Source: a virus. Taken from it: a DNA stretch of 64,000 nucleotides. The notes under the pieces were generated by a model. The model ran no database searches. It was not told the DNA's origin and saw nothing but the letters and a program-made list of their open reading frames with translations. Positions 20,637-39,449 of the stretch are shown piece by piece. Position 1 is the first letter of the stretch. Each line of letters starts with the position of its first letter. The DNA is taken from positions 1 through 64,000 of the IMG/VR virus record IMGVR_UViG_3300021426_000095. One strand, written 5' to 3'. Position numbers and translations under genes: made by a program.

Positions 20637-20639
20637 TAT

Positions 20640-21031: not shown

Positions 21032-21109
21032 ATATTTGTAAGAAAGGGAAAGGAAATTTAATCCTAATCTTACATATCAGGTTTCCTTCAAGAAAAAATA
21101 AAAAACTTC

Positions 21110-21139
21110 TTGACAATCGAAAAGGAAATATGATATAAT
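21110..21139 (+). promoter_or_regulatory. promoter TTGACA-N18-TGaTATAAT + ATAAATGTAAGAAAGGGAGAG leader
   Basis: -35 21110-21115, -10 21134-21139. Confidence 0.55.
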
Positions 21140-21259
21140 ATAAATGTAAGAAAGGGAGAGATGAGAAAGGAATCCCGCTTGGGACGTCCTCCCAGGAAGT
21201 GAAAAGAAATTTCATTTCCAAAACGAGACCGCTCGCAAGAGCAGAAAAGGAGGGCCATC

Positions 21260-21628
21260 ATGGCCGAGAAGAAGATCACCATCGCTGAGAAGTTCGCTGC
21301 TACTATCGCCCTGTTTGAGGGTACTGAGCCTGAGATCGAGTGGGACCCCGCTGATGCGGTTGAGTTCCTGAAGGATCGTGCTGAGAAGGCCAAGTCCAAG
21401 CCGCGTGAGCGCAAGGTTAAGCCTGAAGTTGCTGAGTTCCGTGAGCGTGTCGCGGAGTGGCTGGCTGAAGCTGAGGCTCCTGTGACTGCCAAGGAAGTTG
21501 GTGCGGCTCTGGGTGAGTCCACTCAGAAGGCGTCGGCAGCTCTGCGGTTCCTGGTCGCTGAGGGTGAGGTTGTTGCCCATGATGGCGAGAAGGCCCGCGA
21601 CGCCAAGACTTACGAGATCGCTCGCTAG
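21260..21628 (+). CDS. small winged-helix DNA-binding protein (paralog family, 4 members)
   Basis: GC-rich ORF; C-terminal VTAKEVGAALGESTQKASAALRFLVAEGEVV is wHTH-like; N-terminus MAEKK + KPRERK shared with 25116..25436; flanked by 5 copies of AATTTTCATTTCC. Confidence 0.55.
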   Translation: MAEKKITIAEKFAATIALFEGTEPEIEWDPADAVEFLKDRAEKAKSKPRERKVKPEVAEFRERVAEWLAEAEAPVTAKEVGAALGESTQKASAALRFLVAEGEVVAHDGEKARDAKTYEIAR

Positions 21629-21795
21629 TCTATAACGGTAGGGGAGGGTGCAATGGGGCACCCTCCCAGGAAACAAATTTTAAATTTGAATTTTAATTTT
21701 CATTTCTGAACTTTAAGATTCATATTTGAAATTTTCATTTCCAACTAATCGCAGGTTACTGAAGAAAATTTTCATTTCCAAGAGAGAGGAAAATA

Positions 21796-22188
21796 ATGAA
21801 ATATACTCTTCCTAAGTCATATGCAAATGCGGGACTGCAAGTTGAGATTCCTGATTCCACTCTTAAGCAGTATCGATCTGAGCTCGGTAGTACCAAGGCC
21901 GCAGTTGATAAGTGGCTGTATGAGAATGGCTATATGGCGAAGGTTGAGTATGAAGCTTCAGTAGAAAAGATTGAGGCTAAGAAGCCTGCTAAACGTGAGT
22001 TTAAAATAGACCAAGAGAAGAGCGAAATCATTAATTTTATCTATGAACGGTTGCGGGAGTATGAAGACGAAGAAGGGTCAGCTCTTTTGTCCGAGGTAGA
22101 GATCATAAACCGCAATCGCCTTATTTCTTTCTCTCTTGGAAACAATAAATATGAGCTGACCCTAGTGCGGAAAAAGCAACCTAAATAG
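21796..22188 (+). CDS. hypothetical protein
   Basis: ATG after agagaggaaaataatg; followed by tandem terminators. Confidence 0.5.
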   Translation: MKYTLPKSYANAGLQVEIPDSTLKQYRSELGSTKAAVDKWLYENGYMAKVEYEASVEKIEAKKPAKREFKIDQEKSEIINFIYERLREYEDEEGSALLSEVEIINRNRLISFSLGNNKYELTLVRKKQPK

Positions 22189-22195
22189 ATGACAC

Positions 22196-22227
22196 GAAAG
22201 GCCATAAGGTCGGTTCCTTTCTCTTTT
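22196..22227 (+). terminator. rho-independent terminator
   Basis: gaaagg-ccataaggtcggtt-cctttc + tctttt; a second weaker hairpin + T9 at 22275-22307. Confidence 0.55.
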
Positions 22228-22396
22228 AGCCGTAAGGCTAATAATACACGGCGATCCTGACTAAGCCGTGGGTTAAGGCGTTCGAAAGGGCGCCTTTTCT
22301 TTTTTTTATGCGGTGCGGCTGTCTAAAAAATTTTTAACGAATGTAAGACTTTCCGGTAAGCGGTATTAAATTTGCGGCGAATGGTAAGAATCGCTC

Positions 22397-22426
22397 TAGA
22401 CAGATGTAGTAAAGATATGATATAAT
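22397..22426 (+). promoter_or_regulatory. promoter of the TAGACA-N18-TATAAT class firing into the AT-rich block
   Basis: tctagaca 22395-22402, -10 22421-22426. Confidence 0.45.
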
Positions 22427-22429
22427 TAA

Positions 22430-22560
22430 TCTTAGAGATTAATTAATATATAAATATATTTTATATTATATAAATATTATATATTATATTCTTATATTTT
22501 ATATAGTTAATATATTATATATTTATATAATATATATGACATGACCTTTTTTCTTTCTTG
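22430..22560. repeat. extremely AT-rich (>90% A+T) low-complexity block: candidate DNA unwinding element
   Basis: taattaatatataaatatattttatattatataaatattatatattatattcttatattttatatagttaatatattatatatttatataatatatatgac. Confidence 0.5.
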
Positions 22561-22624
22561 GTACTTCTTTCTTTTTAACTAGTTATTGCGGCCCTAGTGG
22601 TCGTTTTTTTATTATAAAATAATA

Positions 22625-22680
22625 ATTGACAGGAACTTTATTTTATGATATAATAAAAGTGATATATATTTTTTACTAGT
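22625..22680 (+). promoter_or_regulatory. promoter TTGACAG-N17-TGATATAAT + conserved AAAAGTGATATATATTTTTT, copy 1
   Basis: -35 22625-22630, -10 22648-22653; near-identical 40-nt unit repeated at 22765-22815; the hairpin ctaaacgtg-actgccg-cacgtttag at 22699-22723 lies between the copies. Confidence 0.5.
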
Positions 22681-22764
22681 GTGTGCTTCACTAAACGTGA
22701 CTGCCGCACGTTTAGTTCAGCGAGTCAAGTTAAAAGATTTTTATATTAAAATAGTGCGGCGAGC

Positions 22765-22815
22765 TTGACAGCTGCATCATTTTATGATATAATAAAAGTG
22801 ATATATTTTTTTAAA
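22765..22815 (+). promoter_or_regulatory. promoter TTGACAG-N17-TGATATAAT + AAAAGTGATATATTTTTTT, copy 2
   Basis: -35 22765-22770, -10 22788-22793; followed by A/T runs. Confidence 0.5.
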
Positions 22816-23025
22816 AAAATTTTTTTTACTAAGATAAGTTAATTTTTTAATAGCTTAAAAATAAGCTTAAAAAATTCCTAAAAAGTTGTCTTGTCCCTTG
22901 ACAAATCTTATGATAAATAAGCTTTTTGCTGGGCAGAGAGCGCAGCCCAATATAGCTAAAATAAGCTTTCCGACCAAGTAATCAGGCCTTTTTTAAAATT
23001 GCGCAAATGCGGGCAAATCAAGTAG

Positions 23026-23057
23026 TTTTCCACAAAGTTATCCACAAGTTTTCCACC
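23026..23057 (+). promoter_or_regulatory. three head-to-tail DnaA-box-like 9-mers (TTTTCCACA, TTATCCACA, TTTTCCACC): oriC-like element
   Basis: 23026-23034 TTTTCCACA; 23038-23046 TTATCCACA (perfect consensus); 23049-23057 TTTTCCACC; spacing 12 and 11 nt. Confidence 0.55.
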
Positions 23058-23106
23058 ACTGGCCGCACATCTATCCTTCTATTGGGTGAGTTTGCGGATG
23101 TGAGAA

Positions 23107-23150
23107 AAATTGCCTATAGACCTGCGAGTACGACAGAAATTGCCTATACG
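23107..23150 (+). repeat. direct repeat GAAATTGCCTATA(g/c) x2
   Basis: gaaaaattgcctatagacc ... gaaattgcctatacgat. Confidence 0.4.
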
Positions 23151-23239
23151 ATTTTTGATACAGGCGTGCGGGCGAGCACGGCCGAGCTGCCTTATAAGCG
23201 CGTATAATGGTACATTTGTACGTTTGTTGCTTGCGCGGT

Positions 23240-23300
23240 AATTGTGGAGATTTTGTAGATTAGTTTTGGGATTTTTGTGGATTAGTTGTGGAGATTTTGT
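23240..23300. repeat. inverted-orientation DnaA-box-like repeats (TGTGGAGAT, TGTGGATTA, TTGTGGAGA) interleaved with TTTTGTAGATTAG repeats
   Basis: attgtggagattttgtagattagttttgggatttttgtggattagttgtggagattttgtgtagatta. Confidence 0.45.
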
Positions 23301-23339
23301 GTAGATTAAAAATTTCCCTTGACTACGTGGTATAATTTC

Positions 23340-23362
23340 GCTAGAATGCGCCGCATTCTAGC
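23340..23362. repeat. flank-conserved palindrome family, copy 1 (arms gctagaatgcg / cgcattctagc)
   Basis: aatTTCG-arm-c-arm-CGCTGAAAgg. Confidence 0.5.
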
Positions 23363-23380
23363 GCTGAAAGGTTTGGGCAA

Positions 23381-23409
23381 AAGAAAAACCCCGCCATTAC
23401 TGGGCGGGG
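23381..23409 (-). terminator. rho-independent terminator for 23441..23806
   Basis: minus strand: ccccgcc-cagtaat-ggcgggg + tttttctttt. Confidence 0.6.
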
Positions 23410-23440
23410 TTCTCGCCATTACTGGGCGATTAGGTGAGGA

Positions 23441-23806
23441 TTACACCAGCTTGTAGCCGACATAACGCCCCTTCACCTTTTCCACTTTCTCCACTTTACC
23501 AGCGGAGATAAGCACAGCCATGACTTTGGTGCATTTCTGCGAAGTCATAATCCCGTTTACGTGTTCCATAATCCACGAGGTCAGAACAGGCTCACCCTCG
23601 GGCATGACTTTAAGCACTTCGCCAGCCAAACGAATGTTCTCTTTGGCTGCCTTAGACGGCTCATTCGACTTTTCGCGGGGCTTAGTGATGCTTGCCAGCA
23701 TCTTGGCTGCGACCTCACGGGCGTCCTCACGGGCGAGGGTTTCATAATCGCCATTCACAACAGCAGTCAGGACTTCAGCGCGGGTGATGGTGGTGTTCTT
23801 AGCCAT
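23441..23806 (-). CDS. small winged-helix DNA-binding protein (paralog family)
   Basis: C-terminal LTSWIMEHVNGIMTSQKCTKVMAVLISAGKVEKVEKVKGRYVGYKLV is nearly identical to the C-terminus of 26375..26779; RBS aaaggag. Confidence 0.55.
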   Translation of the reverse strand: MAKNTTITRAEVLTAVVNGDYETLAREDAREVAAKMLASITKPREKSNEPSKAAKENIRLAGEVLKVMPEGEPVLTSWIMEHVNGIMTSQKCTKVMAVLISAGKVEKVEKVKGRYVGYKLV

Positions 23807-24075
23807 AATCAGGCTCCTTTCGGTTGCGGGTGAGATTCCGTTTTTTCTCTCCCTCTGACAGTTAATATATTACCAAATCTTAGTGCTGGGGTCAAGTAGA
23901 ATTTTGTCTTCATAAAGTCTCCATAATTCAGGATTTAAAACAAGCGTCTGACCTGCGGTTTTGGTGATCAATTTTTCCCATGCCGGCACAAAGGCAAATT
24001 CGCTTGATTCCGCCGGAATCAAGCGCTCAAACGTTTTAAAGAACAAAAAACCCGCCTGTTTTGGCGGGTTTTTGT

Positions 24076-24774
24076 TTAAAATTGCTCAAATCGCTTTGAA
24101 ATTTCGCGCCAATGCGGATTGTGCATGCAAATTTTAACAAAATCTGAATCAAACTTGCGCTTGCGGCGAATAATTGCTGCGAAAATGTAAGATTCTATCT
24201 CACAGTCTGCCCGTGCGGTGTGCTTTTCTTCAAAATCTGTATCATTTGTGAGGTAGCGATACACAGCTTCCGCACCTGTTTGCGGATGGCCTTTTGCGGT
24301 GGTCAAATTATGCTCAGCACAGAATTTTAGATAATTACGGCTATTGCAAAGGACGGAGAGAGCCATCGCCCAAATGTCCATAAATTTTACATCACCCTTA
24401 AAGAACTGGTCATAACCGAAGTATTGCGCCGTTTTAAGCAGATGAGATACGTCAAATGAAGCATTGTACGCGCACACGGTAGCGTTAAAAGCTTTGCGGA
24501 CACTGTTAATTGTGCGGCGAATCTCAGCAAACGGCATCACGGTAAAAGCATTTGAACCCTTGTACAGCTCAAAATAGTATTGAGCAATTTTAGTCTTAGT
24601 AAAGCAGTCATGAAACATATCAAGCGTCTCAGGATGGTTCATAAATTCCTCACACACAAAGCTACCCTCGGCAACCAAGTTGCCCTTGCGGTCAATCACC
24701 GTGTAGCCATAGTCAAAAACCAGGTCGTCGCACGTTTCGGTGTCAAGAATCATGAAGAACTTTTTGCTTGCCAT
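24076..24774 (-). CDS. DEDDh-family 3'-5' exonuclease (DnaQ / oligoribonuclease-like), paralog A
   Basis: Exo I ILDTETCD, Exo II YNASFDVSHL, Exo III HTARADCE. Confidence 0.65.
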   Translation of the reverse strand: MASKKFFMILDTETCDDLVFDYGYTVIDRKGNLVAEGSFVCEEFMNHPETLDMFHDCFTKTKIAQYYFELYKGSNAFTVMPFAEIRRTINSVRKAFNATVCAYNASFDVSHLLKTAQYFGYDQFFKGDVKFMDIWAMALSVLCNSRNYLKFCAEHNLTTAKGHPQTGAEAVYRYLTNDTDFEEKHTARADCEIESYIFAAIIRRKRKFDSDFVKICMHNPHWREISKRFEQF

Positions 24775-24804
24775 TTTGTTTCCTTTCTCTCTCTGACAAT
24801 TAGT

Positions 24805-24833
24805 ATATTACAGCATGTGCCGCACACAGTCAA
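24805..24833 (-). promoter_or_regulatory. island-type promoter (minus): TTGACT-N17-TAATAT + conserved ACTAATTGTCAGAGAGAGAAAGGAAACAAA leader
   Basis: -35 at 24833-24828, -10 at 24810-24805; equivalent units precede nearly every minus-strand gene of the island. Confidence 0.55.
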
Positions 24834-24915
24834 GTATTAATTTCAGGATTTTGTCTCTTCATATTTTCTTCACAATTGTTCTTGATCTTTCTCTTGGGGT
24901 GTGCAATGGTAAATT

Positions 24916-24940
24916 CGCTCGTTTGCGCCGCAAACGAGCG
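24916..24940. repeat. flank-conserved palindrome, copy 2 (arms cgctcgtttgcg / cgcaaacgagcg)
   Basis: aaATTCG-arm-c-arm-CGCTGAAAc; perfect 12-bp arms. Confidence 0.55.
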
Positions 24941-25115
24941 CTGAAACAAAAAACTCCCGCGTCCTGTGCGCAACAGGCTGATAGCGGGAGGGAGTCTATT
25001 CTTCGGGCACCTTACCATTCCCTTTTATTTGGCGGGGCTACCGCATTAGTAAACTGTTTAATCACCTCTTTTGGATTGTGGGCGGGGAATTTCACCCCGC
25101 CCTGTTTAGATTGGT

Positions 25116-25436
25116 CTAGAGCTTGTAGACCTTGACCTTTTCGGTCGTGGGAATTTCTTCCCACCCCATCGCCTTACAGATGGCGTTTGCCTTGGGCTTG
25201 GAGACTTCCAGAATCTCAGCCACGTTCGCAGCCTTGAAAGTCTCTTCGTCCCAGACCTCAGCGAACTTTTCACCGAGGGCGATGTTCGCATCACGCTTTG
25301 CCGTGTTAGCCTTGCGGGGACGCGGCTTCGTCACCTGAGCGTACATCTTCTCCAGAACCTCTACTGCTTCAGCATTCTCAACAGCAGCAATCGCGATTTC
25401 CAGAGCTTCCTTGCGGGTCATCTTCTTCTCAGCCAT
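25116..25436 (-). CDS. small winged-helix-like protein (paralog family)
   Basis: MAEKKMT...KPRPRK... resembles 21260..21628; its terminator ctcccgc...gcgggag + T6 lies at about 24955-25000 on the minus strand. Confidence 0.5.
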   Translation of the reverse strand: MAEKKMTRKEALEIAIAAVENAEAVEVLEKMYAQVTKPRPRKANTAKRDANIALGEKFAEVWDEETFKAANVAEILEVSKPKANAICKAMGWEEIPTTEKVKVYKL

Positions 25437-25611
25437 GTCACTTTCCTTTCTTTCGTGGGGAGTTTCTTTCTTTTTTCCTCTCCCCTCCTGACACTTAGTA
25501 TATTACACTACCCATACCCAAGAGTCAAGCATTAATTTCAGGATTCTTGCGGCTTCACAATTCCTTCACATTTGCGATGATCTTTTTGACTGGTGCGTGA
25601 TAAGGTAATTT

Positions 25612-25638
25612 CGCGTCATTTCCTCCGAAAATGACGCG
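25612..25638. repeat. flank-conserved palindrome, copy 3 (arms cgcgtcattt / aaatgacgcg, 6-nt centre)
   Basis: taATTTCG-cgtcattt-cctccg-aaaatgacgcg-gcc. Confidence 0.45.
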
Positions 25639-25700
25639 GCCATCAGAGTCAATTAAACTATTTTTAATTAAAAAATAAATGGGGCTATTGCCCCATTTAT

Positions 25701-26159
25701 TTACCACCTAGCATTAAGCCATTTACGAGTTTCTTTGTCATGAATTTTTACCGTTAGCTTTTTGTGATGTGAAATCCTCCAATCTTTGAACAGTGCAGGC
25801 TCTTCAATGGTATCAAAACCATTAGCTTTAATAATGACCTTTTTTACATCAACCCTCTCAAATAGTCCGACTTCATGAATAGCTACGACTTTGTACTTTT
25901 TGCCGTTAACCCTAATAAACTTTGGAACTACAATCGTTTTTGCGTGATGCTTAATTTTAGTCAGTGCGCAGATTTTACCAGTATACAGTGCATAATGATT
26001 GCCGTCTTTGTATTTTACAATTTGTGTAGCATTCGGTGGCAAATTAATATTTGCGGCGGTTAATTGTGATGCATGAGCCGTTGCGGGGAAAATAATCAAC
26101 GTGGCAAATAACATCAGGATGAACATCGAAATGAAATTACGATTATTAGAAGTGGTCAT
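25701..26159 (-). CDS. secreted or lipoprotein-like protein with signal peptide
   Basis: ATG 26159 after agaaaggga RBS; MTTSNNRNFISMFILMLFATLIIFPATAHA|SQ looks like a signal sequence. Confidence 0.5.
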   Translation of the reverse strand: MTTSNNRNFISMFILMLFATLIIFPATAHASQLTAANINLPPNATQIVKYKDGNHYALYTGKICALTKIKHHAKTIVVPKFIRVNGKKYKVVAIHEVGLFERVDVKKVIIKANGFDTIEEPALFKDWRISHHKKLTVKIHDKETRKWLNARW

Positions 26160-26295
26160 TTTGTTCCCTTTCTCTCTGTCCTTTTGACAAATACATAATA
26201 TCATATTCGTAGCTTAAATATTTCAGGATGTGACTTCCGCACATAATCTCCACATTTAGTTTTGATTTTTTCTCTTGGGTGTTACATAGTAATTT

Positions 26296-26321
26296 CGTTG
26301 GATTGCGCCCGCAATCCAACG
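26296..26321. repeat. flank-conserved palindrome, copy 4 (arms cgttggattgcg / cgcaatccaacg)
   Basis: aATTTCG-arm-cc-arm-CGCTGAAAgg. Confidence 0.55.
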
Positions 26322-26374
26322 CTGAAAGGAAAAGCCCCCGCCTTACGGCGAGGGCTAGAAGGGAAGGGGTCAGA

Positions 26375-27032: not shown

Positions 27033-27057
27033 CGGTCGTTTGCGCCGCAAATGACCG
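27033..27057. repeat. flank-conserved palindrome, copy 5 (arms cggtcgtttgcg / cgcaaatgaccg, one G-T)
   Basis: caATTCG-arm-c-arm-CGCTGAAAgc. Confidence 0.5.
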
Positions 27058-27938: not shown

Positions 27939-27963
27939 CGTGCGCTTGGCCCGCAAGCGCACG
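27939..27963. repeat. flank-conserved palindrome, copy 6 (arms cgtgcgcttg / caagcgcacg, centre gcccg)
   Basis: aaAATCG-arm-gcccg-arm-CCaaacaaaaac. Confidence 0.5.
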
Positions 27964-28013
27964 CCAAACAAAAACGCCCCGAAGGGCGTTTTAGAGAGAA
28001 AGGCCAATCTTGT

Positions 28014-28271
28014 TTAGTGCATGTCTGCCCATTCCTGAGCAGTGGTTTCAGTGGTGAACGGGCCAGCTACCGCGGTGTGATAAGTTTCCCAACCAAACAT
28101 TTCGTCATACACTTTTTCAACTTCTTCTACGAAGTAGGCCGCAGGCCAAACCTTCTTGCCGACTACCCTTGTCGGGTTTGCTGCTTCAACAGCTCCCAGA
28201 TGTTCTTTCATGTACCAATCACACTTGCAACCGAAGTCCCTAGCGTTTTTTTTGATTTCGTAGCGTTTCAT
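28014..28271 (-). CDS. hypothetical small protein
   Basis: ATG 28271 after gaaagagaaaggtaagaag. Confidence 0.45.
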   Translation of the reverse strand: MKRYEIKKNARDFGCKCDWYMKEHLGAVEAANPTRVVGKKVWPAAYFVEEVEKVYDEMFGWETYHTAVAGPFTTETTAQEWADMH

Positions 28272-28357
28272 CTTCTTACCTTTCTCTTTCTTTCTTACAA
28301 GGTAAGTGTACCATGAGGGGCTGACTTTGTCAACCCCTCTACGAAATCTCCACAAAA

Positions 28358-29041
28358 CTACTTCTTGCACTTAAGACGTTCTTTCCAGACGCGCTGACGG
28401 AAAACAGGCGAGCACATAGAAGTTTCAAGCTTTTGCTTGCGCTTAAACACCGCTTGCAAAATTTGTGCTTCAATTTCACAGTCTGATAGCGCGGTATGGT
28501 CTTCCTCAAACGTGGCGTTTTGCACAAGGTAGGAGTAGACGCTTTCAGCGCTGCAAGAAATATTACCCTTTTCAGTGATAAAACCTGAATCAATACACCA
28601 ACGGACATAATTGGAACTATCACAAATAATGTTAAGTGCCATGTTCCACAAGTCCCAAACCTCAGTATCTTCAGTGAAGAACTGCTCACCCATAAGGATT
28701 TTTGCATAATCATTAAGCACTTTTACATCAAATCCCGCATTGTAAGCGACCACAACAGCGTCAAACTTTTCAATGGTTTGAGTTGTGTACCAGTGAATAG
28801 TTTCAAAATCCATAATGGGCGCAGGCTCATTATCAAGATAAAAAGCAGCTTTGTGCTTAGAAAAAGAGTCACGCTTAATCAGATAGCGCAGCGTTTCATT
28901 TTGCATAATCTCAGCGACAAGACCGTTGAAGCGCTCTACGATTTGACCCTGACGGTCAACCAAAATCCAAGCTACGTCATAAGGCACGCGAGCATCTGCA
29001 ACCGTTTCAGTGTCAAGAACCATGTAATACTTCTTAGTCAT
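28358..29041 (-). CDS. DEDDh-family 3'-5' exonuclease, paralog B
   Basis: ATG 29041 after gaaaggaaa RBS; MVLDTETVAD, YNAGFDVKVL, HTALSDCE. Confidence 0.65.
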   Translation of the reverse strand: MTKKYYMVLDTETVADARVPYDVAWILVDRQGQIVERFNGLVAEIMQNETLRYLIKRDSFSKHKAAFYLDNEPAPIMDFETIHWYTTQTIEKFDAVVVAYNAGFDVKVLNDYAKILMGEQFFTEDTEVWDLWNMALNIICDSSNYVRWCIDSGFITEKGNISCSAESVYSYLVQNATFEEDHTALSDCEIEAQILQAVFKRKQKLETSMCSPVFRQRVWKERLKCKK

Positions 29042-29198
29042 TTCAGATTTCCTTTCTCTCTCTGACAAGATACATATTACACTAATGCGGTCATGCGGTC
29101 AACCACTTCACATAATCTCCACATTTCAGGATTGATCTGTCATAGTCCTGTACTAGTAATGCACGATTATTTTTCTCCAAGGCACATAAAGGCAAATT

Positions 29199-29223
29199 CG
29201 CCAGCGTGGGCCGCACGCTGGCG
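29199..29223. repeat. flank-conserved palindrome, copy 7 (arms cgccagcgtg / cacgctggcg)
   Basis: aaATTCG-arm-ggccg-arm-CTGAATG. Confidence 0.5.
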
Positions 29224-29256
29224 CTGAATGAGAAGGAGGGCTTTTGCCCTCCTGTT

Positions 29257-29457
29257 TTAAACTTCAATCTCTGCAAAGAGTTCATCAGTATCAGCATCCC
29301 AGATATCCGCATGACCTCCACCTAGCTCTTCAAGGCCACTTCGCACATCTTCGAGCATTTCTTTTTCAGCAGATGGCGTAGTGTAGGAAATCCAGTAATC
29401 GTGCCAGTGGTCGCATCCGTCTATTCCGTCAAATTCGATATTAAAACATCTAGCCAT
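29257..29457 (-). CDS. hypothetical small acidic protein
   Basis: ORF with RBS gaaaggaaagaaaatg. Confidence 0.45.
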   Translation of the reverse strand: MARCFNIEFDGIDGCDHWHDYWISYTTPSAEKEMLEDVRSGLEELGGGHADIWDADTDELFAEIEV

Positions 29458-29543
29458 TTTCTTTCCTTTCTCTTTACCTTACAGGTAAATTGTATCACAG
29501 AAAATAATAAAAGTGAAGACCCCTCACGGAGTCTTCACATTTT

Positions 29544-29735
29544 CTACACGTAATATTCTTTCCCAGAGGGCGCGACAATCTTAGCAACTTGTACACGGTT
29601 AACATAAACAAACTTTTTAGCTTCATCCATGACTTCAACAATACAAGTTGCTTTGTATTCCCGCACACAGGAGCGACCAATAAAATCTTCATACTTGAGT
29701 TGATAAACAACTTTCTTTGCGACTTTCTTTTTCAT
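29544..29735 (-). CDS. hypothetical small basic protein
   Basis: ORF with RBS agagaaaggagtaacc. Confidence 0.45.
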   Translation of the reverse strand: MKKKVAKKVVYQLKYEDFIGRSCVREYKATCIVEVMDEAKKFVYVNRVQVAKIVAPSGKEYYV

Positions 29736-29768
29736 GGTTACTCCTTTCTCTCTTGGACTACGTCCAGT

Positions 29769-30017
29769 TTACCAGAAGTCTACCACAATGTCAAGGTCAT
29801 TTTTGTCCTTCACATCTTCTCCACAATTGCGGAGTTGCGGCAGAAAATTTTCATCCAATGGCATGGTAATTTCTCCACCGACAAAATCTTCTGAATCGAG
29901 AACAATTTCTGCAGCATCAATACGGCGTTCAATTTCTTGGATTGCATCAGCCATACTATCAGCTTCAATAATAATGCGGCGTGCAAGAGTTTCTTTGTAA
30001 TCAAAAGTAAACTTCAT
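29769..30017 (-). CDS. hypothetical small acidic protein
   Basis: ORF; contains the CTTCACATCTTCTCCACAATTG motif within its coding sequence. Confidence 0.4.
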   Translation of the reverse strand: MKFTFDYKETLARRIIIEADSMADAIQEIERRIDAAEIVLDSEDFVGGEITMPLDENFLPQLRNCGEDVKDKNDLDIVVDFW

Positions 30018-30019
30018 AA

Positions 30020-30163
30020 TTAATTCTCCTGTTCATCTTCTGGTAACTCTTCATCTTCGTACCGATGAGTAAAGATATTTTCAATCTCTCCATTTTTTGT
30101 TTTTTGTTCAAAAAGGTCTTTCGATTTTTGGCTTTCTTCCTGAAGAAAATCAAACAGCGTCAT
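30020..30163 (-). CDS. hypothetical 47-aa acidic peptide
   Basis: ATG 30163 after gagaaaggattaatc; under 60 aa so not in the ORF track. Confidence 0.3.
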   Translation of the reverse strand: MTLFDFLQEESQKSKDLFEQKTKNGEIENIFTHRYEDEELPEDEQEN

Positions 30164-30180
30164 GATTAATCCTTTCTCTC

Positions 30181-30429
30181 TTACAAGAAGAGGATACCAT
30201 AAACACTAAACCAAGTCAAGATAAAAACAGCGATTGCGGCACATCCACACAAAAAAGCCACAATTCGCGCAGGCCAACTCAAAGCGTCATACATGTAGCA
30301 ATGTTCAACCCCTGTGCATGTTTCTACATCGCCAAGATAGGTAAACAGGTAAGCATCAGCCCATGCCCAAACAAAATAACACCCAACAGAGATGGTAATT
30401 GCCGCGCAAATAATAATAATTCCGTTCAT
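30181..30429 (-). CDS. small membrane protein
   Basis: ATG 30429 after aagagaaaggagagaaa; 3 hydrophobic segments. Confidence 0.45.
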   Translation of the reverse strand: MNGIIIICAAITISVGCYFVWAWADAYLFTYLGDVETCTGVEHCYMYDALSWPARIVAFLCGCAAIAVFILTWFSVYGILFL

Positions 30430-30545
30430 TTTCTCTCCTTTCTCTTTTGGATACATAGTATCACACTTAGTTTTAGGATGCAATACTCTTCACAGAATTA
30501 TCACATTCGAGCTAATTTTTTATCTACCTGCAATAGACGTAATTT

Positions 30546-30570
30546 CGCTCGCTTGCGCCGCAAGCGAGCG
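30546..30570. repeat. flank-conserved palindrome, copy 8 (arms cgctcgcttgcg / cgcaagcgagcg)
   Basis: aATTTCG-arm-c-arm-CTGGCAAG. Confidence 0.55.
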
Positions 30571-30595
30571 CTGGCAAGTTCCAGCGCTCTTTTTA

Positions 30596-30709
30596 CTACC
30601 TCTTGGAAATTTCTTCTTGCCAAGCTGCGATTTTGTCTTCATTTAGAAAGAGGGCTATCGCTGCGATGATTGTGAAAATGACGGCGATAATCAAATCAGA
30701 AATCAGCAT
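30596..30709 (-). CDS. 37-aa single-TM peptide
   Basis: ATG 30709 after ggagaaataaa; MLISDLIIAVIFTIIAAIALFL. Confidence 0.35.
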   Translation of the reverse strand: MLISDLIIAVIFTIIAAIALFLNEDKIAAWQEEISKR

Positions 30710-30719
30710 TTTATTTCTC

Positions 30720-30932
30720 CTAAGCTTTGAATTTATTTCCCCAGCCATCAGACAGATACAGCGGCTTGATAGTGTCTTCGCAATTCTCCATAAAGGCGAC
30801 AGCTTTGTCAACTGCTTCTGCAACGCCCAGGCATTTACCGAGGTCAGCTTGACGGGCAATCCACTCGTTTTTGTAGCTGTAGTAAGTCGCATAGTGGAGC
30901 TTGTAGTTGCCAATCCATTCCCGCTTTGCCAT
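30720..30932 (-). CDS. hypothetical small protein
   Basis: ATG 30932 after agagagaaaggaactcag. Confidence 0.45.
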   Translation of the reverse strand: MAKREWIGNYKLHYATYYSYKNEWIARQADLGKCLGVAEAVDKAVAFMENCEDTIKPLYLSDGWGNKFKA

Positions 30933-31074
30933 CTGAGTTCCTTTCTCTCTTTCTGACAAATAAATTGTACCATAAATAATTTTGACCGTCAAGAAAAGTT
31001 TCAGGATTACTTCTCTTCATAATTATTCCACAAGTGCGGAAGATCTTTTTCTCTGGTGCGCTTAAATGTAAAAT

Positions 31075-31099
31075 CGTCCGCTGTGGCCGACAGCGGACG
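31075..31099. repeat. flank-conserved palindrome, copy 9 (arms cgtccgctgt / acagcggacg, centre ggccg)
   Basis: aaAATCG-arm-ggccg-arm-CGGAGCC. Confidence 0.5.
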
Positions 31100-31134
31100 C
31101 GGAGCCTTTTTGACTCCGCGCCCCAAGAGAGAGA

Positions 31135-31341
31135 CTAAAACAGTCTTTCAAGGTCTGCCCAGCTGTAACCAATCGCGGGAGAGAGAATCAAGCGGCCAAT
31201 TCCAATTTGCCATTTAAACTGTTCTTCCGCTTCTTTCTTTGCGGCCAGCAGTTCTTCTTTGGTGTCAAAGAAATCAACATGCTGTTCGTACAAATCAAAA
31301 GTATCTTCGTCTACCCAGTCCCAAACAAGCATGAACTCCAT
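31135..31341 (-). CDS. hypothetical small acidic protein
   Basis: ORF with RBS agagaaaggaaaaatc. Confidence 0.45.
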   Translation of the reverse strand: MEFMLVWDWVDEDTFDLYEQHVDFFDTKEELLAAKKEAEEQFKWQIGIGRLILSPAIGYSWADLERLF

Positions 31342-31383
31342 GATTTTTCCTTTCTCTTAACTGACAAAGTCATTGTACCACAG

Positions 31384-31833
31384 TTAGGCAACACGGTCAA
31401 GCAGATTTTGAAGTTGCTTCATAATATCTTCACAAGCATTAATGGTTTCACCATGCCACGCCGCACGCACTTTTGCATTATCATCTACTAGAATAGAGTC
31501 TTTAATCTTTGCGGTTTGGTGCTTAGGTGTACCATACTTGACACAGTGGAATTCAGTCACGCAGGGAAGATTTTTAGCAATCCAATCTTTCTTAACTCTG
31601 CGAGTAGCTTTGTTAAATTCTTTGCTACCATGCATAGCAGACCACGTAACTACACCGATAACAAATCCAAGGGCTACAAACTCTTCAAGTAGAGCGTTCA
31701 AGTTACCCATGTCATACATAGCTTCGCCGCACGAATAGGCAGTTACGTCCTCAGAATTAAGGCGAGACTCCCAATCAGTTACAGAGTACAGGTCATAAAT
31801 TGTGCCGTCCATGTCAAAATAGATAGCTTGCAT
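31384..31833 (-). CDS. HAD-superfamily 5'(3')-deoxyribonucleotidase-like hydrolase
   Basis: motif I IYFDMDGTI (DxDGT); later ILVDDN. Confidence 0.6.
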   Translation of the reverse strand: MQAIYFDMDGTIYDLYSVTDWESRLNSEDVTAYSCGEAMYDMGNLNALLEEFVALGFVIGVVTWSAMHGSKEFNKATRRVKKDWIAKNLPCVTEFHCVKYGTPKHQTAKIKDSILVDDNAKVRAAWHGETINACEDIMKQLQNLLDRVA

Positions 31834-31962
31834 GTTTCTTCCTCTCTCTTGGTTGATTACATAATAGCATAATACACTATTGGTAGTTACAGGATTGTCT
31901 TACTTCACATAATCTCCACAAGTCCGGCGATCTTTTTACCCTAGTGCGTAAGGTGCTAATTT

Positions 31963-31988
31963 CGTTCGCGCAGGACCGTGCGCGAACG
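31963..31988. repeat. flank-conserved palindrome, copy 10 (arms cgttcgcgca / tgcgcgaacg)
   Basis: taATTTCG-arm-ggaccg-arm-CACGACC. Confidence 0.5.
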
Positions 31989-31998
31989 CACGACCTGT

Positions 31999-32196
31999 TT
32001 AGAAGCCAACTCGCCTAATTACGCGATAGCTACGCTTAGTAGGCCCGAAGATTTCTTCTACTACATCGCCATCCTGCCAGTCGGAGTCAAAGCCCCAGAA
32101 CTCCAAGGCTTCGGCCTCAGTGTTAAACCATGCGTACAGAAACCCGCCTGCGCGAGTGTGTCCGTCTACGTGGAAAATACTCTCAATGGTGGCCAT
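31999..32196 (-). CDS. hypothetical small protein
   Basis: ATG 32196 after agagagggg. Confidence 0.4.
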   Translation of the reverse strand: MATIESIFHVDGHTRAGGFLYAWFNTEAEALEFWGFDSDWQDGDVVEEIFGPTKRSYRVIRRVGF

Positions 32197-32346
32197 GTCA
32201 GCCCCTCTCTCTTCTCTCTTAACCTTACAAATACATAATACCATAGAGTGAGATATTTGTCAACTAATAGTTACAGGATAGAACTATCTTCACATAATCT
32301 ACATAATGCTGCCGGGTTTTTCTTGTAGTGCGTGTAAGCGATAATT

Positions 32347-32371
32347 CGCTCGCTGTGGCCCACAGCGAGCG
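32347..32371. repeat. flank-conserved palindrome, copy 11 (arms cgctcgctgtgg / ccacagcgagcg)
   Basis: taATTCG-arm-c-arm-GCCAGTCC. Confidence 0.55.
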
Positions 32372-32419
32372 GCCAGTCCCTTAAGCCAGCCACTCTGCTA
32401 GATTGCCTACAAGATTAGA

Positions 32420-32617
32420 CTAAGACTTTTTGACTTTTTTCTTCTTTCTCCTAATTGGTCTGATAATAAACCAGCCAATAATAATCCAGATAGGACCTAA
32501 GACAAACCAAGGAATGCACCATATTATTTCTTCTTTTGAACAGTTGTCTAAAATCATCATAATGCTAAAGCACACAGCACACAGATAGAGCCAGCTTAAA
32601 ATAATTGTTGTAGTCAT
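32420..32617 (-). CDS. small membrane protein with poly-Lys tail
   Basis: 2 TM + RRKKKKVKKS; promoter TTGACA-N17-TATTAT on the minus strand at about 32640-32700. Confidence 0.45.
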   Translation of the reverse strand: MTTTIILSWLYLCAVCFSIMMILDNCSKEEIIWCIPWFVLGPIWIIIGWFIIRPIRRKKKKVKKS

Positions 32618-32771
32618 TGTATCTCCTTTCTTCTAACAATTGCATAATACTGTATTTATTGTTTAGTGTCAACCTTTTCATAATATCTACATAAGTTTCA
32701 GGATATTAGAAACCATATTTAAATATGTATTTGAAAATTATTTTTGTTTCTAGTGTGCGTGAGAGATAATT

Positions 32772-32796
32772 CGCTCGTGTTGGCCCAACACGAGCG
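32772..32796. repeat. flank-conserved palindrome, copy 12 (arms cgctcgtgttgg / ccaacacgagcg)
   Basis: taATTCG-arm-c-arm-AGCGAGC; followed by the GC-rich low-complexity block 32797-32950. Confidence 0.5.
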
Positions 32797-33238
32797 AGCG
32801 AGCTCTACGAGAGAGCGTGTGCGTGCGCGTGAGAGAGTGTACGCACAAGACCGCACAAAGCTTGCGCTAAGCTTACACAAAGCCTGCGAAGACGTGCCAG
32901 CGAGCTAGACAGCCCGGCCGCATGAACTGTCCTCTTTTGGAGTGATGGGAAGGTGTGGACATTGTTGCCATTATTTTATCGGTCGAGCATAGAAGACTGT
33001 TGTGTTATTGCAATGATAAATAAAACTCCTACCAGGGGGTGTAATTTCAGGATTTTTTAATATTGATTTGTGAAATGTCTTTTGCCTCGCAATCCAAAGA
33101 ACGTACTTTAAATTTAAAAGAACGTAAATCAAAATTTCCTATATTAAAATTTTTTAATATATCAAATTTCGAGAAATCTATCCTCCTAAAAATTATATTA
33201 TATAGCTTAAAATTTTGTGTTTCTATCTAAAAAAGTCA

Positions 33239-39447: not shown

Positions 39448-39449
39448 AA

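What the first reader, a model, noticed from the sequence alone, without database searches (positions are those of the whole stretch)
21100..32950. GC-richer island of about 19 small genes built from repeated palindrome-upstream element-promoter-leader-gene-terminator units
By eye the island is about 50% GC against about 30% for the flanks. On the minus strand nearly every gene has its own copy of the same unit in the same order. The unit runs: an upstream-gene terminator (GC hairpin + T-run), the flank-conserved palindrome, CTTCACAtAATCTCCACA plus TTTCAGGAT motifs, TTGACT-N17-TAATAT, and a conserved leader (ACTAAGTGTCAGGAGGGGAGAG...AAAGGAA) before ATG. Cargo includes:
- 4 paralogous winged-helix proteins
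- 2 paralogous DEDDh exonucleases
- a HAD deoxyribonucleotidase
- a signal-peptide protein
- several small membrane and acidic proteins
Self-contained, individually terminated, near-identically driven units resemble a cassette array or host-takeover module. Their compositional contrast suggests acquisition or exchange as modules. I do not recognise this architecture as a described system.
Basis: seen in the sequence. Interest (0 to 1): 0.9.

Follow-up and report, generated by a model that had tools for sequence, protein, structure and literature searches.

The report
Hairpin-bounded gene cassette array, rumen phage
A sheep-rumen relative of phage SPbeta carries an 11.8 kb, GC-richer block of about 22 small genes, arranged as self-contained cassettes that share one regulatory unit and have been swapped, lost and moved between related phages, much like the promoter/stem-loop cassettes already described in T4-type phages.

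Summary
The island is 44-46% GC against 32-33% for the flanks, not 50 against 30. Twelve homologous units serve 20 minus-strand genes. Each unit has a strictly base-paired GC hairpin, two 11-bp-phased TGTGRAGA boxes, an ATCCTGAAA/UP-like motif, a sigma-A promoter and an AGAGAAAGGA leader.

The window is a sheep-rumen SPbeta-like phage. Its late genes read TGA as Trp; the island never uses TGA.

Across 15 related contigs the hairpin-bounded cassettes are replaced, deleted, inserted and translocated. Breakpoints fall exactly at the start codon and at the hairpin edge, or inside the units.

Best reading: an accessory, pre-late gene region (early lytic or prophage-expressed) built from composite insulator-operator-promoter-leader units. 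The units give each cassette its own expression and provide the homology for modular shuffling.

New here:
- the covarying hairpin at a fixed 66-67 nt from the promoter-proximal motif
- DnaA-box-like phased boxes shared with unrelated phages
- the compositional and codon-reassignment context

Expression timing, the role of the hairpin and the box-binding protein are inferred, not shown.

The parts
21100..32950 (.). Whole GC-richer island. It has a plus-strand part (21100-22200), a non-coding hub (22200-23330) and a minus-strand cassette array (23330-32950).
   Evidence: Composition. The same block sits at the same place in relatives L001, L023 and L025.
21260..21628 (+). p1: 122-aa, 59% GC protein, winged-helix-like, distantly related to g18. 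It is driven by a backbone-class promoter at 21110-21139.
21796..22188 (+). p2: 130-aa protein of unknown function, conserved in distant relatives.
22200..23330 (.). Non-coding hub where the two gene sets converge. It holds an AT-rich repeat (22433-22541), two duplicated consensus promoters with no ORF (22626-22654 and 22765-22793, plus strand), three DnaA-box-type 9-mers (23026-23057), a TATAAT at about 23203, and then six 11/12-bp-phased boxes (23243-23304). Candidate origin or regulatory hub.
23339..32796 (-). Thirteen GC palindromes of the form CG-N9-(C)GGC(G)-N9'-CG followed by AAWTT. Coordinates: 32796-32772, 32371-32347, 31988-31963, 31099-31075, 30570-30546, 29223-29199, 27963-27939, 27057-27033, 26321-26296, 25638-25612, 24940-24916, 24025-24001, 23363-23339.
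   Evidence: The outer 10 bp are 98% Watson-Crick over 27 distinct copies, with 3-4 pair types at 8 of 10 positions. Predicted hairpins are -17 to -27 kcal/mol.
32618..32806 (-). Unit U1 (class B order), driving g1.
32197..32381 (-). Unit U2, driving g2.
31834..31998 (-). Unit U3 (extended -10, no -35), driving g3 and g4.
30933..31109 (-). Unit U4, driving g5 and g6.
30430..30580 (-). Unit U5, driving g7 to g9, with g10 and g11 downstream.
29042..29233 (-). Unit U6 (class B), driving g12 and g13.
27800..27973 (-). Unit U7, driving about 130 nt with no ORF (27826-27690). A plain promoter for g14 and g15 follows.
26780..27067 (-). Unit U8 (with a 70-nt insertion), driving winged-helix gene g16 through a hairpin leader.
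26160..26331 (-). Unit U9, driving g17.
25437..25648 (-). Unit U10, driving winged-helix gene g18.
24775..24950 (-). Unit U11, driving exonuclease g19.
23807..24035 (-). Unit U12 (class B), driving winged-helix gene g20.
32420..32617 (-). g1: 65-aa membrane protein. It is replaced by an unrelated 74-aa ORF in L023, L025 and L057.
31999..32196 (-). g2: 65 aa, ORFan.
31384..31833 (-). g3: HAD-type (DxDGT) protein, putative 5'-deoxyribonucleotidase.
31135..31341 (-). g4: 68 aa, acidic.
30596..30932 (-). g5 (70 aa) and g6 (37-aa membrane peptide).
29257..30429 (-). g7 (82-aa membrane), g8 (47-aa acidic), g9 (82 aa, DpnD/PcfM-like), g10 (63 aa) and g11 (66-aa acidic). The double box and promoter of g10 lie inside the 3' end of g9.
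28358..29041 (-). g12: DEDDh-type exonuclease paralogue.
28014..28271 (-). g13: 85 aa.
27179..27616 (-). g14 (90-aa membrane protein, conserved in distant relatives) and g15 (51 aa).
26375..26779 (-). g16: winged-helix protein, 134 aa, GC3 0.66.
25701..26159 (-). g17: 152-aa protein with a signal peptide, 37% GC. It is replaced by a 52-aa ORF in L023.
25116..25436 (-). g18: 106-aa protein, winged-helix-like.
24076..24774 (-). g19: DEDDh-type exonuclease.
23441..23806 (-). g20: winged-helix protein, 121 aa.

Best explanation
The island is the accessory, pre-late gene region of a TGA-recoded SPbeta-like rumen siphovirus. It is built from autonomous expression cassettes.

**The unit.** Each cassette is bounded by one copy of a composite regulatory unit of about 150-200 bp, in this order:
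- a GC hairpin;
- a conserved block;
- two 11-bp-phased TGTGRAGA boxes, which sit 10, 20 or 30 bp from the -35;
- an ATCCTGAAA/UP-like motif;
- a sigma-A promoter;
- a purine-rich leader whose AGAAAGGA pairs with the 3' end of 16S rRNA.

**Shown.**
- The units are homologous to one another.
- The hairpin is under selection for pairing.
- The boxes are phased with the promoter.
- Cassettes differ between related phages, with breakpoints at the unit edges or inside the units.

**Inferred.**
- (a) The units give every cassette strong host-RNAP transcription and translation that does not depend on the phage's code switch.
- (b) The hairpin acts as the cassette's built-in insulator, meaning a fail-safe terminator or 3'-end barrier like the stem-loop (SL) component of a PeSL. 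A DNA-level role is the main alternative.
- (c) The boxes bind a common regulator, more likely a host factor of DnaA type than an island protein.
- (d) The dispersed, same-orientation units are the substrate for homologous recombination that swaps, deletes, inserts and moves cassettes. This lets cargo of mixed origin accumulate and gives the GC contrast.

**Cargo.** A conserved core (DEDDh exonucleases, HAD nucleotidase, winged-helix proteins, a membrane protein) plus many ORFans points to host-nucleic-acid handling and host manipulation.
For: **Identity of the phage.**
- The DnaE-type polymerase is 38.8% identical to the SPbetaL1 homologue of SPbeta YorL (38.6% to YorL itself) over 99% of its length.
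- RecJ-like exonuclease, NrdD, a portal protein and a virion structural protein are present, and the right-hand neighbour carries YonG_N.
- The window is identical to a sheep-rumen scaffold.

**Unit homology and statistics.**

**Hairpin.**
- 265 of 270 outer-stem cells are Watson-Crick, against a shuffle mean of 164 and maximum of 182.
- Compensatory changes occur between orthologous copies, for example window 31988 against L001 5136, and window 27963 against L001 7754.
- The centre expands to 13-17 nt in L001 1767 and 4479 with the stems kept. A hairpin tolerates this; a dimeric double-stranded-DNA operator would not.

**Cassette exchange, from 93-97% identical variants (L023, L025).**
- g1, g8 and g17 are replaced by unrelated ORFs.
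- For g1 and g17 the left breakpoint is at the ATG and the right breakpoint at the first base of the palindrome.
- A whole extra unit plus a non-coding RNA is inserted.

**Cassette exchange, from L001.** Loss of g16 and g17 is explained by a crossover between U8 and U10, because L001 9201-9302 matches both.

**Cassette map of 15 contigs.**
- 164 ORFs fall into 49 families, 21 of them singletons.
- The order is conserved, with variable slots.
- L057 has the cassette [g12 g13] translocated in front of [g3 g4].
- L035 joins the g2 family directly to the g14 family.
- One slot holds six different contents.

**Code.**
- Island genes have 50 TGG, 0 TGA and 0 of 20 TGA stops.
- Late genes have 21 TGG and 42 TGA (Fisher p = 1.6e-15).
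- Replication genes have 35 TGG and 0 TGA.
- A tRNA with anticodon UCA lies at 49729-49825.

**Mixed origin of cargo.** Gene GC ranges from 33% to 59%, and the winged-helix domain is 73% identical to an Eggerthellaceae MAG protein.

**Core cargo.** It is shared with distant relatives L002, L004, L006, L015 and L020, which use the same grammar of terminator, inverted repeat, box pair, promoter and AGAGAAAGGA leader.

**Precedent.** PeSLs are strong sigma-70 promoters plus stem-loops that flank ORFans in hyperplastic regions, with indel breakpoints inside them (PMC2839356).
Against: - There is no expression data, so promoters, terminators and timing are all predictions.
- The hairpin is not a canonical terminator: its tail is AAWTTAC, not a U-run.
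- About 8 of 12 units already have a canonical terminator just upstream.
- G·U pairs are not tolerated (2 in 270).
- The hairpin sits at a rigid 66-67 nt from ATCCTGAAA even where the intervening sequence has diverged. Together with the previous two points, this favours a DNA-level or protein-recognised role over an RNA terminator.
- The island promoters lack the ATATGnTATAAT element of the 15 backbone promoters, an element that resembles the SPbeta SPBRE operator region. If the phage is temperate, the island could therefore be expressed in the lysogen rather than early in infection.
- ORF replacements flanked by conserved sequence show where homology starts. They do not show that recombination is targeted to the units.
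- The host and the box-binding protein are unknown.
Confidence: 0.7

Rival explanations
1. The architecture is as described, but the island is a prophage-expressed moron or accessory island (lysogenic conversion, exclusion or defence genes) rather than an immediate-early host-takeover module.
For: - Each cassette has its own promoter and usually its own terminator, and cargo GC is heterogeneous. These are the defining traits of morons (discussed in PMC2839356).
- Membrane and secreted proteins are present (g1, g6, g7, g14, g17).
- Island promoters lack the SPBRE-like ATATGnTATAAT element carried by 15 backbone promoters. In SPbeta that element is the master repressor's site on lytic promoters (PMC10516654).
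- SPbeta-like phages are temperate.
Against: - No integrase or repressor lies in the 64 kb window, so a temperate lifestyle is not shown.
- A conserved core of exonucleases plus a deoxyribonucleotidase looks more like nucleic-acid takeover. From my own knowledge, T5 pre-early dmp and A1 are the analogy.
- Consensus promoters and extended SD leaders suggest burst expression.
- The boxes could themselves be repressor sites.
Confidence: 0.3
2. The palindromes are double-stranded-DNA operators for the island's own dimeric winged-helix paralogues, or sites for another hairpin/cruciform-binding protein placed at a fixed distance from the promoter. On this reading the array is primarily a regulatory network, not an insulator/recombination scaffold.
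For: - Strict Watson-Crick symmetry without G·U pairs.
- Invariant outer CG and a conserved GGC centre.
- A fixed 66-67 nt spacing to ATCCTGAAA.
- Four winged-helix-type proteins are encoded in the island.
- In the L015 and L004 lineage the equivalent inverted repeats fall into two classes with conserved sequence, CCGAAC-N4-6-GTTCGG and GTTAGCC-N-GGCTAAC.
Against: - In the window lineage the half-sites vary at 8 of 10 positions with perfect compensation across 27 copies. One protein, or four, would not follow that.
- The centre can grow by 12-14 nt, which would destroy half-site spacing on duplex DNA.
Confidence: 0.15
3. The hairpins are recombination sites of a dedicated site-specific cassette system, analogous to integron attC, rather than passive homology.
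For: - The sites are selected for structure, with conserved flanks and a variable stem, as in attC.
- The hairpins lie exactly at the right-hand cassette boundaries.
- Whole hairpin-bounded cassettes are translocated (L057).
Against: - No integrase or recombinase is found in the island or in any related locus.
- Cassettes carry their own promoters.
- The left breakpoints are at the start codon, not at a hairpin.
- The U8 x U10 crossover lies in the promoter-leader part of the unit.
- The stems are perfect and lack the extrahelical bases of attC.
Confidence: 0.07
4. The island is a foreign mobile element or satellite that has inserted into the phage.
For: A sharp GC step at both edges, a different promoter class from the backbone, and tandem 20-nt repeats at the left edge (20638-20780).
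Against: - The island sits at the same position next to the sigma-like gene in relatives as distant as L002.
- It has no integrase, no replication gene and no flanking direct repeats.
- Cargo GC is heterogeneous rather than uniform.
- A backbone-class promoter drives p1 inside the island.
Confidence: 0.05

Closest known systems
PeSLs (promoter-early stem-loops) of T4-type phages (Arbiol et al. 2010, PMC2839356; Comeau et al. 2014, PMC4122927)
   Same: - Repeated composite motifs of about 100 bp that combine a strong sigma-70-type promoter, an AT-rich upstream region and a GC stem-loop.
- They lie between small ORFans in a plastic region.
- Insertion, deletion and replacement differences between close relatives have breakpoints in or at the motifs.
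- Each cassette is transcriptionally isolated.
   Different: - The host phage here is an SPbeta-like siphovirus of a Gram-positive-type host, not a T4-like myovirus.
- The unit is longer (150-200 bp) and carries extra parts: a 25-bp near-perfect palindrome with conserved CG base and AAWTT flank at a fixed 66-67 nt from the promoter-proximal motif, two 11-bp-phased boxes, and a conserved long SD leader.
- The island is compositionally distinct and sits in a TGA-recoded genome.
- Mini-circles were not tested.
Morons (Juhala/Hendrix concept, as discussed in PMC2839356)
   Same: A single gene with its own promoter and terminator, with nucleotide composition unlike its neighbours. The gene is present or absent between otherwise similar phages.
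   Different: Morons are scattered and lack shared flanking sequence. Here about 12 are in tandem and share one homologous regulatory unit that probably mediates their exchange.
SPO1 host-takeover module (Stewart et al. 1998; summarised in PMC6873191)
   Same: About 12 kb holding about 24-26 small genes in about 12 short operons, with strong early sigma-A promoters and strong ribosome-binding sites, in a Bacillus-type phage.
   Different: - No sequence homology was detected: no INPHARED DNA match and no takeover-gene families.
- SPO1's module lies in a terminal redundancy.
- To my knowledge, no shared hairpin/box unit and no cassette shuffling have been described for SPO1.
- Early timing is unproven here.
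SPBRE / MrpR operator system of SPbeta (Kohm et al. 2023, PMC10516654)
   Same: One short element repeated in many promoter regions of an SPbeta-type genome and bound by one regulator.
   Different: - The SPBRE overlaps the -10 (AATATGTATATAATA).
- It resembles the window's 15 backbone promoters, not the island units.
- The boxes and the palindrome are unrelated to it in sequence.
Arrays of DnaA boxes (TTATCCACA; low-affinity 9-mers spaced 2 bp apart in opposed arrays in oriC, from my own knowledge)
   Same: - The box TGTGRAGAW shares the TGTGnA core with the complement of the DnaA box.
- The period is 11 bp.
- Opposed arrays of 3-5 boxes occur in the window hub (next to three consensus-type DnaA boxes at 23026-23057) and in unrelated phages L011, L014 and L016.
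   Different: - Position 7 is G in 78% of 295 boxes, where DnaA boxes have T or A.
- Binding is untested and the host is unknown.
Integron gene-cassette arrays
   Same: Tandem, same-orientation small-gene cassettes separated by structure-conserved but sequence-variable hairpin sites.
   Different: There is no integrase, the cassettes have their own promoters, and breakpoints are not confined to the hairpin.

Membership tests
PeSL-type composite promoter/stem-loop shuffling cassettes | A repeated intergenic motif that combines a consensus sigma-70-type promoter with an adjacent stable stem-loop. | tested here: met
   Twelve aligned units, promoter statistics, and hairpins of -17 to -27 kcal/mol.
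PeSL-type composite promoter/stem-loop shuffling cassettes | Location between small, mostly orphan genes in a plastic region. | tested here: met
   Most cargo has no Pfam or PHROG hit. The cassette map gives 49 families, 21 of them singletons, over 15 contigs.
PeSL-type composite promoter/stem-loop shuffling cassettes | Indels and replacements between close relatives have breakpoints in or at the motifs. | tested here: met
PeSL-type composite promoter/stem-loop shuffling cassettes | Promoter and terminator activity of the motif, and circular excision products. | not testable with these tools
   This needs reporter assays and inverse PCR, or read-level junction analysis.
PeSL-type composite promoter/stem-loop shuffling cassettes | Sequence homology to the T4-type PeSL consensus, or residence in a T4-like phage. 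| tested here: not met
   The backbone is SPbeta-like and there is no DNA match to any INPHARED phage. The resemblance is one of function and architecture only.
Moron | A gene with its own promoter and terminator. | tested here: met
   Predicted for most cassettes.
Moron | Composition different from the flanking phage genes. | tested here: met
   GC3 is 0.29-0.67 in the island against 0.10-0.30 in the backbone.
Moron | Expression from the repressed prophage. | not testable with these tools
   No expression data are available, and lysogeny is not established.
SPO1-type host-takeover module | A cluster of small genes in short operons with strong early promoters and strong RBS. | tested here: met
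SPO1-type host-takeover module | Early expression and shut-off of host functions. | not testable with these tools
   Inferred only from the absence of TGA and from the exonuclease and nucleotidase cargo.
SPO1-type host-takeover module | Homology to SPO1 genes gp37-60. | tested here: not met
   No phage DNA match and no host-takeover PHROGs apart from the nucleotidase.
Integron cassette array | An adjacent tyrosine-recombinase integrase. | tested here: not met
   None in the island, the flanks or the related loci.
Integron cassette array | Promoterless cassettes, each ending in an imperfect attC hairpin with R''/R' cores and extrahelical bases. | tested here: not met
   The cassettes have promoters, and the hairpins are near-perfect with a CG...CG base.
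SPBRE/MrpR regulon of SPbeta | The 15-bp SPBRE motif in the promoter region. | tested here: not met
   The SPBRE-like ATATGnTATAAT is found in backbone promoters but not in the minus-strand island units.
N4-type hairpin promoters for a phage RNA polymerase | A short DNA hairpin (5-7 bp stem, 3-nt loop) upstream of early genes, plus a virion or phage single-subunit RNAP. | tested here: inconclusive
   Triloop hairpins lie upstream of every unit, but their stems are 11-12 bp. No RNAP gene is present in the 64 kb window, and the rest of the genome was not seen.
DnaA-box arrays | 9-mers matching TTWTNCACA, in same-orientation arrays with 2-bp spacers. | tested here: inconclusive
   The 11-bp period and the opposed arrays are met. 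The consensus differs at position 7. Three true consensus-type boxes lie at 23026-23057.

The most novel reading that the evidence does not exclude
The units are an active, protein-recognised platform rather than passive homology. On this reading, a structure-selected DNA hairpin held exactly 66-67 bp from the promoter-proximal motif, together with helically phased DnaA-box-like sites, is read by the host initiator DnaA or by the island's own winged-helix paralogues. The roughly 30 sites would then couple pre-late gene expression to the state of the host's replication initiator, or titrate that initiator. The hairpins would act as cruciform or ssDNA sites that target cassette exchange. That would amount to a phage-borne, promoter-carrying analogue of an integron.
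Probability: 0.12. Interest if true: 0.8.

Novelty: new variant of a known kind. Interest (0 to 1): 0.55.

Why it matters
- It extends modular shuffling through shared regulatory cassettes, documented so far for T4-type coliphages and vibriophages, to an uncultured SPbeta-like phage of the rumen. A natural series of 15 contigs catches replacement, deletion, insertion and translocation of cassettes.
- It gives a concrete picture of how a stop-codon-recoded phage organises the genes it must express before its code switch. These genes contain no TGA, have host-type promoters and long SD leaders, and differ in composition from the AT-rich, tRNA-supplemented backbone.
- The covarying hairpin and the phased boxes are well-defined, testable cis-elements.
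- The box is shared with unrelated phages and may point to a host factor that many rumen phages exploit.

Tried and rejected
- **Known phages and plasmid-like records.** Megablast and blastn of the island against INPHARED found nothing.
- **Known RNA families.** Rfam at gathering and at E-value thresholds gave only tRNAs outside the island and sub-threshold terminator look-alikes.
- **Long-range pairing.** I tested whether the TTTCAG left of the hairpin pairs with the CTGAAA of ATCCTGAAA. Complementarity is no better within a unit than between units (3.87 against 3.95), so this was rejected.
- **Palindrome as a duplex operator.** Disfavoured by half-site variation and by expansion of the centre.
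- **Homology of the box or palindrome to the SPbeta SPBRE.** Rejected. The SPBRE resembles the backbone promoter class instead.
- **Integron model.** No integrase was found and the breakpoints do not fit.
- **Window non-coding transcript 27826-27690.** It shows no fold signal, z = -0.44.
- **PDB sequence searches** for the exonuclease and the HAD protein found nothing.
- **Literature search** for the box as a DnaA-box variant found nothing useful.
- **Host identification.** The genome scan gave only two Coriobacteriia MAG contigs that carry the winged-helix domain in a 52-62% GC context. I read this as gene transfer, not as host evidence.

Full report
**What the window is.** The backbone encodes a 1273-aa DnaE-type polymerase that is 38.8% identical over 99% of its length to its homologue in SPbetaL1 (38.6% to SPbeta YorL). 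It also encodes a RecJ-like exonuclease, NrdD, a portal protein and a virion structural protein, and a YonG_N protein next to the island. An exact protein look-up shows the window is identical to a sheep-rumen metagenome scaffold (L024). Variants that are 93-97% identical exist on contigs of 113 and 132 kb (L025, L023). The island has no DNA match to any deposited phage.

**Checking the observation.** The GC contrast is real but smaller than stated. The stretch 23300-32950 is 44.1% GC and 21100-22200 is 46.0%, against flanks of 33.0% and 32.1%. A 33% GC non-coding gap lies at 22200-23300. GC3 is 0.29-0.67 in island genes and 0.10-0.30 in backbone genes. ORFs and intergenic DNA are equally enriched (44.3% and 43.9%), and 37% of the array is non-coding, which is unusual for a phage.

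I count 20 genes on the minus strand (g1-g20) and 2 on the plus strand. Twelve upstream regions align colinearly over palindrome, conserved block, double box, ATCCTGAAA, -35, -10, leader and ATG (A1).
- The double box occurs 28 times against 3.4 expected.
- TTGAC-N17-19-TAWWAT occurs 24 times against 1.7 expected.
- The palindrome occurs 13 times, only in the island and only on the sense strand.

'Nearly every gene' is overstated. Five genes have plainer promoters and four are operonic. Three units have ATCCTGAAA upstream of the boxes rather than downstream.

**Anatomy of the unit: the palindrome.** It has the form CG-N9-(C)GGC(G)-N9'-CG followed by AAWTT.
- Over 27 distinct copies from the window and relatives, 265 of 270 outer-stem cells are Watson-Crick. 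Eight of ten positions show 3-4 pair types. Shuffling partners gives a mean of 164 and a maximum of 182.
- Orthologous copies differ by compensatory double changes.
- Two copies in L001 carry 13-17-nt centres with intact stems. A folded hairpin tolerates that; a dimer site on duplex DNA would not.
- Predicted RNA hairpins are 11 bp with a GGC triloop, at -17 to -27 kcal/mol.
- The 3' end of the palindrome lies 66-67 nt from ATCCTGAAA in almost every unit, even where the intervening sequence has diverged.

**Anatomy of the unit: boxes, promoter and leader.** The boxes have the consensus TGTGRAGAWWW with an 11-bp period (295 boxes). The second box starts 10, 10, 19 or 29-31 bp before the -35 (read), which places it on one face of the helix. 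The leader AGAGAGAAAGGA contains AGAAAGGA, which is complementary to the 3'-terminal UCCUUUCU of Firmicute-type 16S rRNA (my own knowledge).

The island promoters (TTGACy-N17-GTAATAT) form a different class from 15 backbone promoters (TTGACr-N13-ATATGnTATAAT). The backbone class resembles the SPBRE-bearing promoters of SPbeta (AATATGTATATAATA). Those are the sites of the master repressor MrpR (PMC10516654).

**Evidence from relatives.** Against L023 and L025, three ORFs (g1, g8, g17) are replaced by unrelated ORFs. For g1 and g17 the left breakpoint is at the ATG and the right breakpoint at the first base of the palindrome. L023 also carries an extra unit that drives about 430 nt with no ORF.

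L001 is 70-88% identical. It lacks g7, g12-g13 and g16-g17, and it has 3.4 kb of other cassettes. The loss of g16-g17 is a crossover between units U8 and U10, because L001 9201-9302 matches both.

A pattern scan of metagenomes found 12 more contigs with palindromes and boxes. A cassette map of 15 contigs, using palindromes as separators, gives 164 ORFs in 49 families, 21 of them singletons.
- The order is conserved, with variable slots.
- In L057 the cassette [g12 g13] is translocated in front of [g3 g4].
- L035 joins the g2 family directly to the g14 family.
- The slot between g16 and g18 has six different contents.

More distant relatives (L002, L004, L015) keep the grammar of terminator, inverted repeat, box pair, promoter and AGAGAAAGGA leader. 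They also keep a core cargo of exonuclease, HAD nucleotidase, winged-helix proteins, g14, p1 and p2.

**Genetic-code context.** The genes right of the island (a sigma-like factor of PHROG 5767, the YonG-like gene, terminase and portal) and the gene on its left are interrupted only by in-frame TGA, which aligns with Trp in L002. A tRNA with anticodon UCA lies at 49729-49825.
- Late genes have 42 TGA and 21 TGG.
- The island has 0 TGA, 50 TGG and no TGA stops (p = 1.6e-15).
- Replication genes have 0 TGA and 35 TGG.

This fits the published idea that recoding separates late from earlier genes (Borges et al. 2022, cited in PMC11210395). It places the island in the class of genes readable by the unmodified host.

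**Cargo.**
- g12 and g19 are paralogous DEDDh-type exonucleases.
- g3 is a HAD protein matching a 5'-3' deoxyribonucleotidase PHROG.
- g9 is DpnD/PcfM-like.
- g16 and g20 are paralogues. A g20 model with pLDDT 88 has a C-terminal winged helix.
- The g16/g20 family is known only from metagenomes. The exception is three tandem copies, 73% identical, inside a large protein on a 52-58% GC Eggerthellaceae MAG contig, plus one Coriobacteriaceae contig. This argues that the GC-richest cargo came from a high-GC donor.
- Gene GC ranges from 33% to 59%, as expected for mixed origins.

**Interpretation.** The best-supported reading is an accessory, pre-late gene region made of autonomous cassettes that share a composite regulatory unit. 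The unit supplies strong, code-independent expression and insulation. Because about a dozen copies lie in the same orientation, the units also supply the homology for cassette exchange.

This is what PeSLs do in T4-type phages (PMC2839356, PMC4122927). It overlaps with the moron concept, and in layout it resembles the SPO1 host-takeover module (PMC6873191).

Shown here: unit homology, hairpin covariation, box phasing, absence of TGA, and cassette turnover with breakpoints at the units.

Inferred: promoter and terminator activity, timing, and the roles of the hairpin and the boxes.

I favour an insulator / fail-safe terminator role for the hairpin. It always sits between the end of one transcription unit and the next promoter. 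It is also the only hairpin after four window cassettes and after the replacement ORFs in L023.

Several facts keep a DNA-level or protein-recognised role nearly as likely:
- the weak U-tract;
- the canonical terminators just upstream in about 8 units;
- the absence of G·U pairs;
- the fixed spacing to the promoter.

For the boxes, a host factor is more likely than an island protein. Arrays of 3-5 boxes, including opposed arrays, occur in unrelated phages that lack any island homologue within the loci held (L011, L014, L016). In the window they sit beside three consensus-type DnaA boxes at 23026-23057. The match to the DnaA box fails at position 7.

**Rivals.**
- Prophage-expressed moron island: same architecture, different timing, and not excluded.
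- Duplex operator for the winged-helix paralogues: disfavoured.
- Integron-like site-specific system: no integrase, and the breakpoints do not fit.
- Inserted foreign element: the position is conserved in distant relatives and there is no mobility gene.

**Verdict.** This is a real, well-delimited and statistically solid feature. The claim of an undescribed architecture does not. I rate it a new variant of a known kind and of moderate interest, with a low-probability but interesting possibility that the hairpin and the DnaA-like boxes are actively recognised elements.

Noticed in passing
window 19083-20636, 33320-51418 (late genes); tRNA at 49729-49825: The backbone is stop-codon recoded. Late and structural genes, and the sigma-like factor, carry in-frame TGA read as Trp (42 TGA against 21 TGG). 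Replication genes and the island have none. A suppressor-type tRNA with anticodon UCA (called 'SeC' by ARAGORN) lies at 49729-49825, and an array of at least 10 tRNAs lies at 1-6200.
   Followed up: yes
window 954, 4846, 4973, 8118, 10403, 14014, 15429, 21002, 21110, 22626, 22765, 48910, 49500 (+); 53430, 61280 (-): There are fifteen near-identical backbone promoters of the form TTGACr-N13-(A/T)TATGnTATAAT. They resemble the SPBRE-bearing promoters of SPbeta (yorE and yorZ: ...AATATGTATATAATA), which suggests an MrpR-like master-repressor regulon separate from the island promoters.
   Followed up: partly
window 22200-23330: This is a non-coding convergence zone. It contains an AT-rich repeat (22433-22541), two duplicated perfect promoters with no ORF (22626 and 22765, plus strand), three DnaA-box-type 9-mers with 11-12 bp spacing (23026-23057), and an opposed array of six TGTGGAGAT-type boxes (23243-23304) downstream of a TATAAT. 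It may be a replication origin or a regulatory hub.
   Followed up: partly
window 27690-27826 (-); L023 6880-7300 (+); L001 about 7445-7548: A full unit drives a stretch with no ORF: about 130 nt in the window (no fold signal, z = -0.44) and about 430 nt in L023 and L025 (z = -2.2, no Rfam match). The L023 stretch is partly conserved in L001 (79% over 105 nt). It may be a non-coding RNA cargo or a decayed cassette.
   Followed up: partly
L016 6230-6410; L011 9580-9730; L014 9185-9240; L009 790-880: Unrelated phage contigs carry arrays of 3-5 of the same 11-bp boxes, and L016 and L011 have two opposed arrays. In L016 the arrays are interleaved with a second iteron (AAAGTGTCACAAA) just upstream of a 1263-aa ORF that I took to be a primase-polymerase gene from its translation (not checked against any family library). 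This looks like an origin.
   Followed up: partly
L029 9980-11095 (Eggerthellaceae MAG contig JAFRJC010000116.1): The island's winged-helix domain occurs three times in tandem, 68-76% identical, at the C-terminal end of a very large ORF. A stretch of cysteine motifs that look like a 4Fe-4S ferredoxin domain (judged by eye) lies between the first two copies. The context is 52-58% GC.
   Followed up: no
L001 1800-4400: There are three repeated modules of about 800 bp, each with a gene of about 100 aa. Each gene is preceded by 10 or more boxes in both orientations and by a leftward consensus promoter whose transcript would start into a triple box array. This is a much denser regulatory region than any in the window.
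   Followed up: no
window 29790-29830 (inside the 3' end of g9): The double box and the TTGACA-N17-TAAACT promoter of g10 lie within the coding sequence of g9 (...LRNCGEDVKDKNDLDIVV...). A unit remnant has been absorbed into an ORF.
   Followed up: no
window 20638-20780 and 20930-21800: Five tandem copies of a roughly 20-nt repeat (TTCAACTGGAATTTTATTTA) lie at the left edge of the island. A recurrent GGAAATGAAAAT motif occurs around the plus-strand genes and is also seen in L015.
   Followed up: no
window 33320-34417 (+): The gene divergent from the right edge of the island is a 365-aa sigma-like factor with a C-terminal zinc ribbon (PHROG 5767, E 1.4e-33). It contains five in-frame TGA codons. 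It keeps this position next to the island in L001, L023 and L002.
   Followed up: partly
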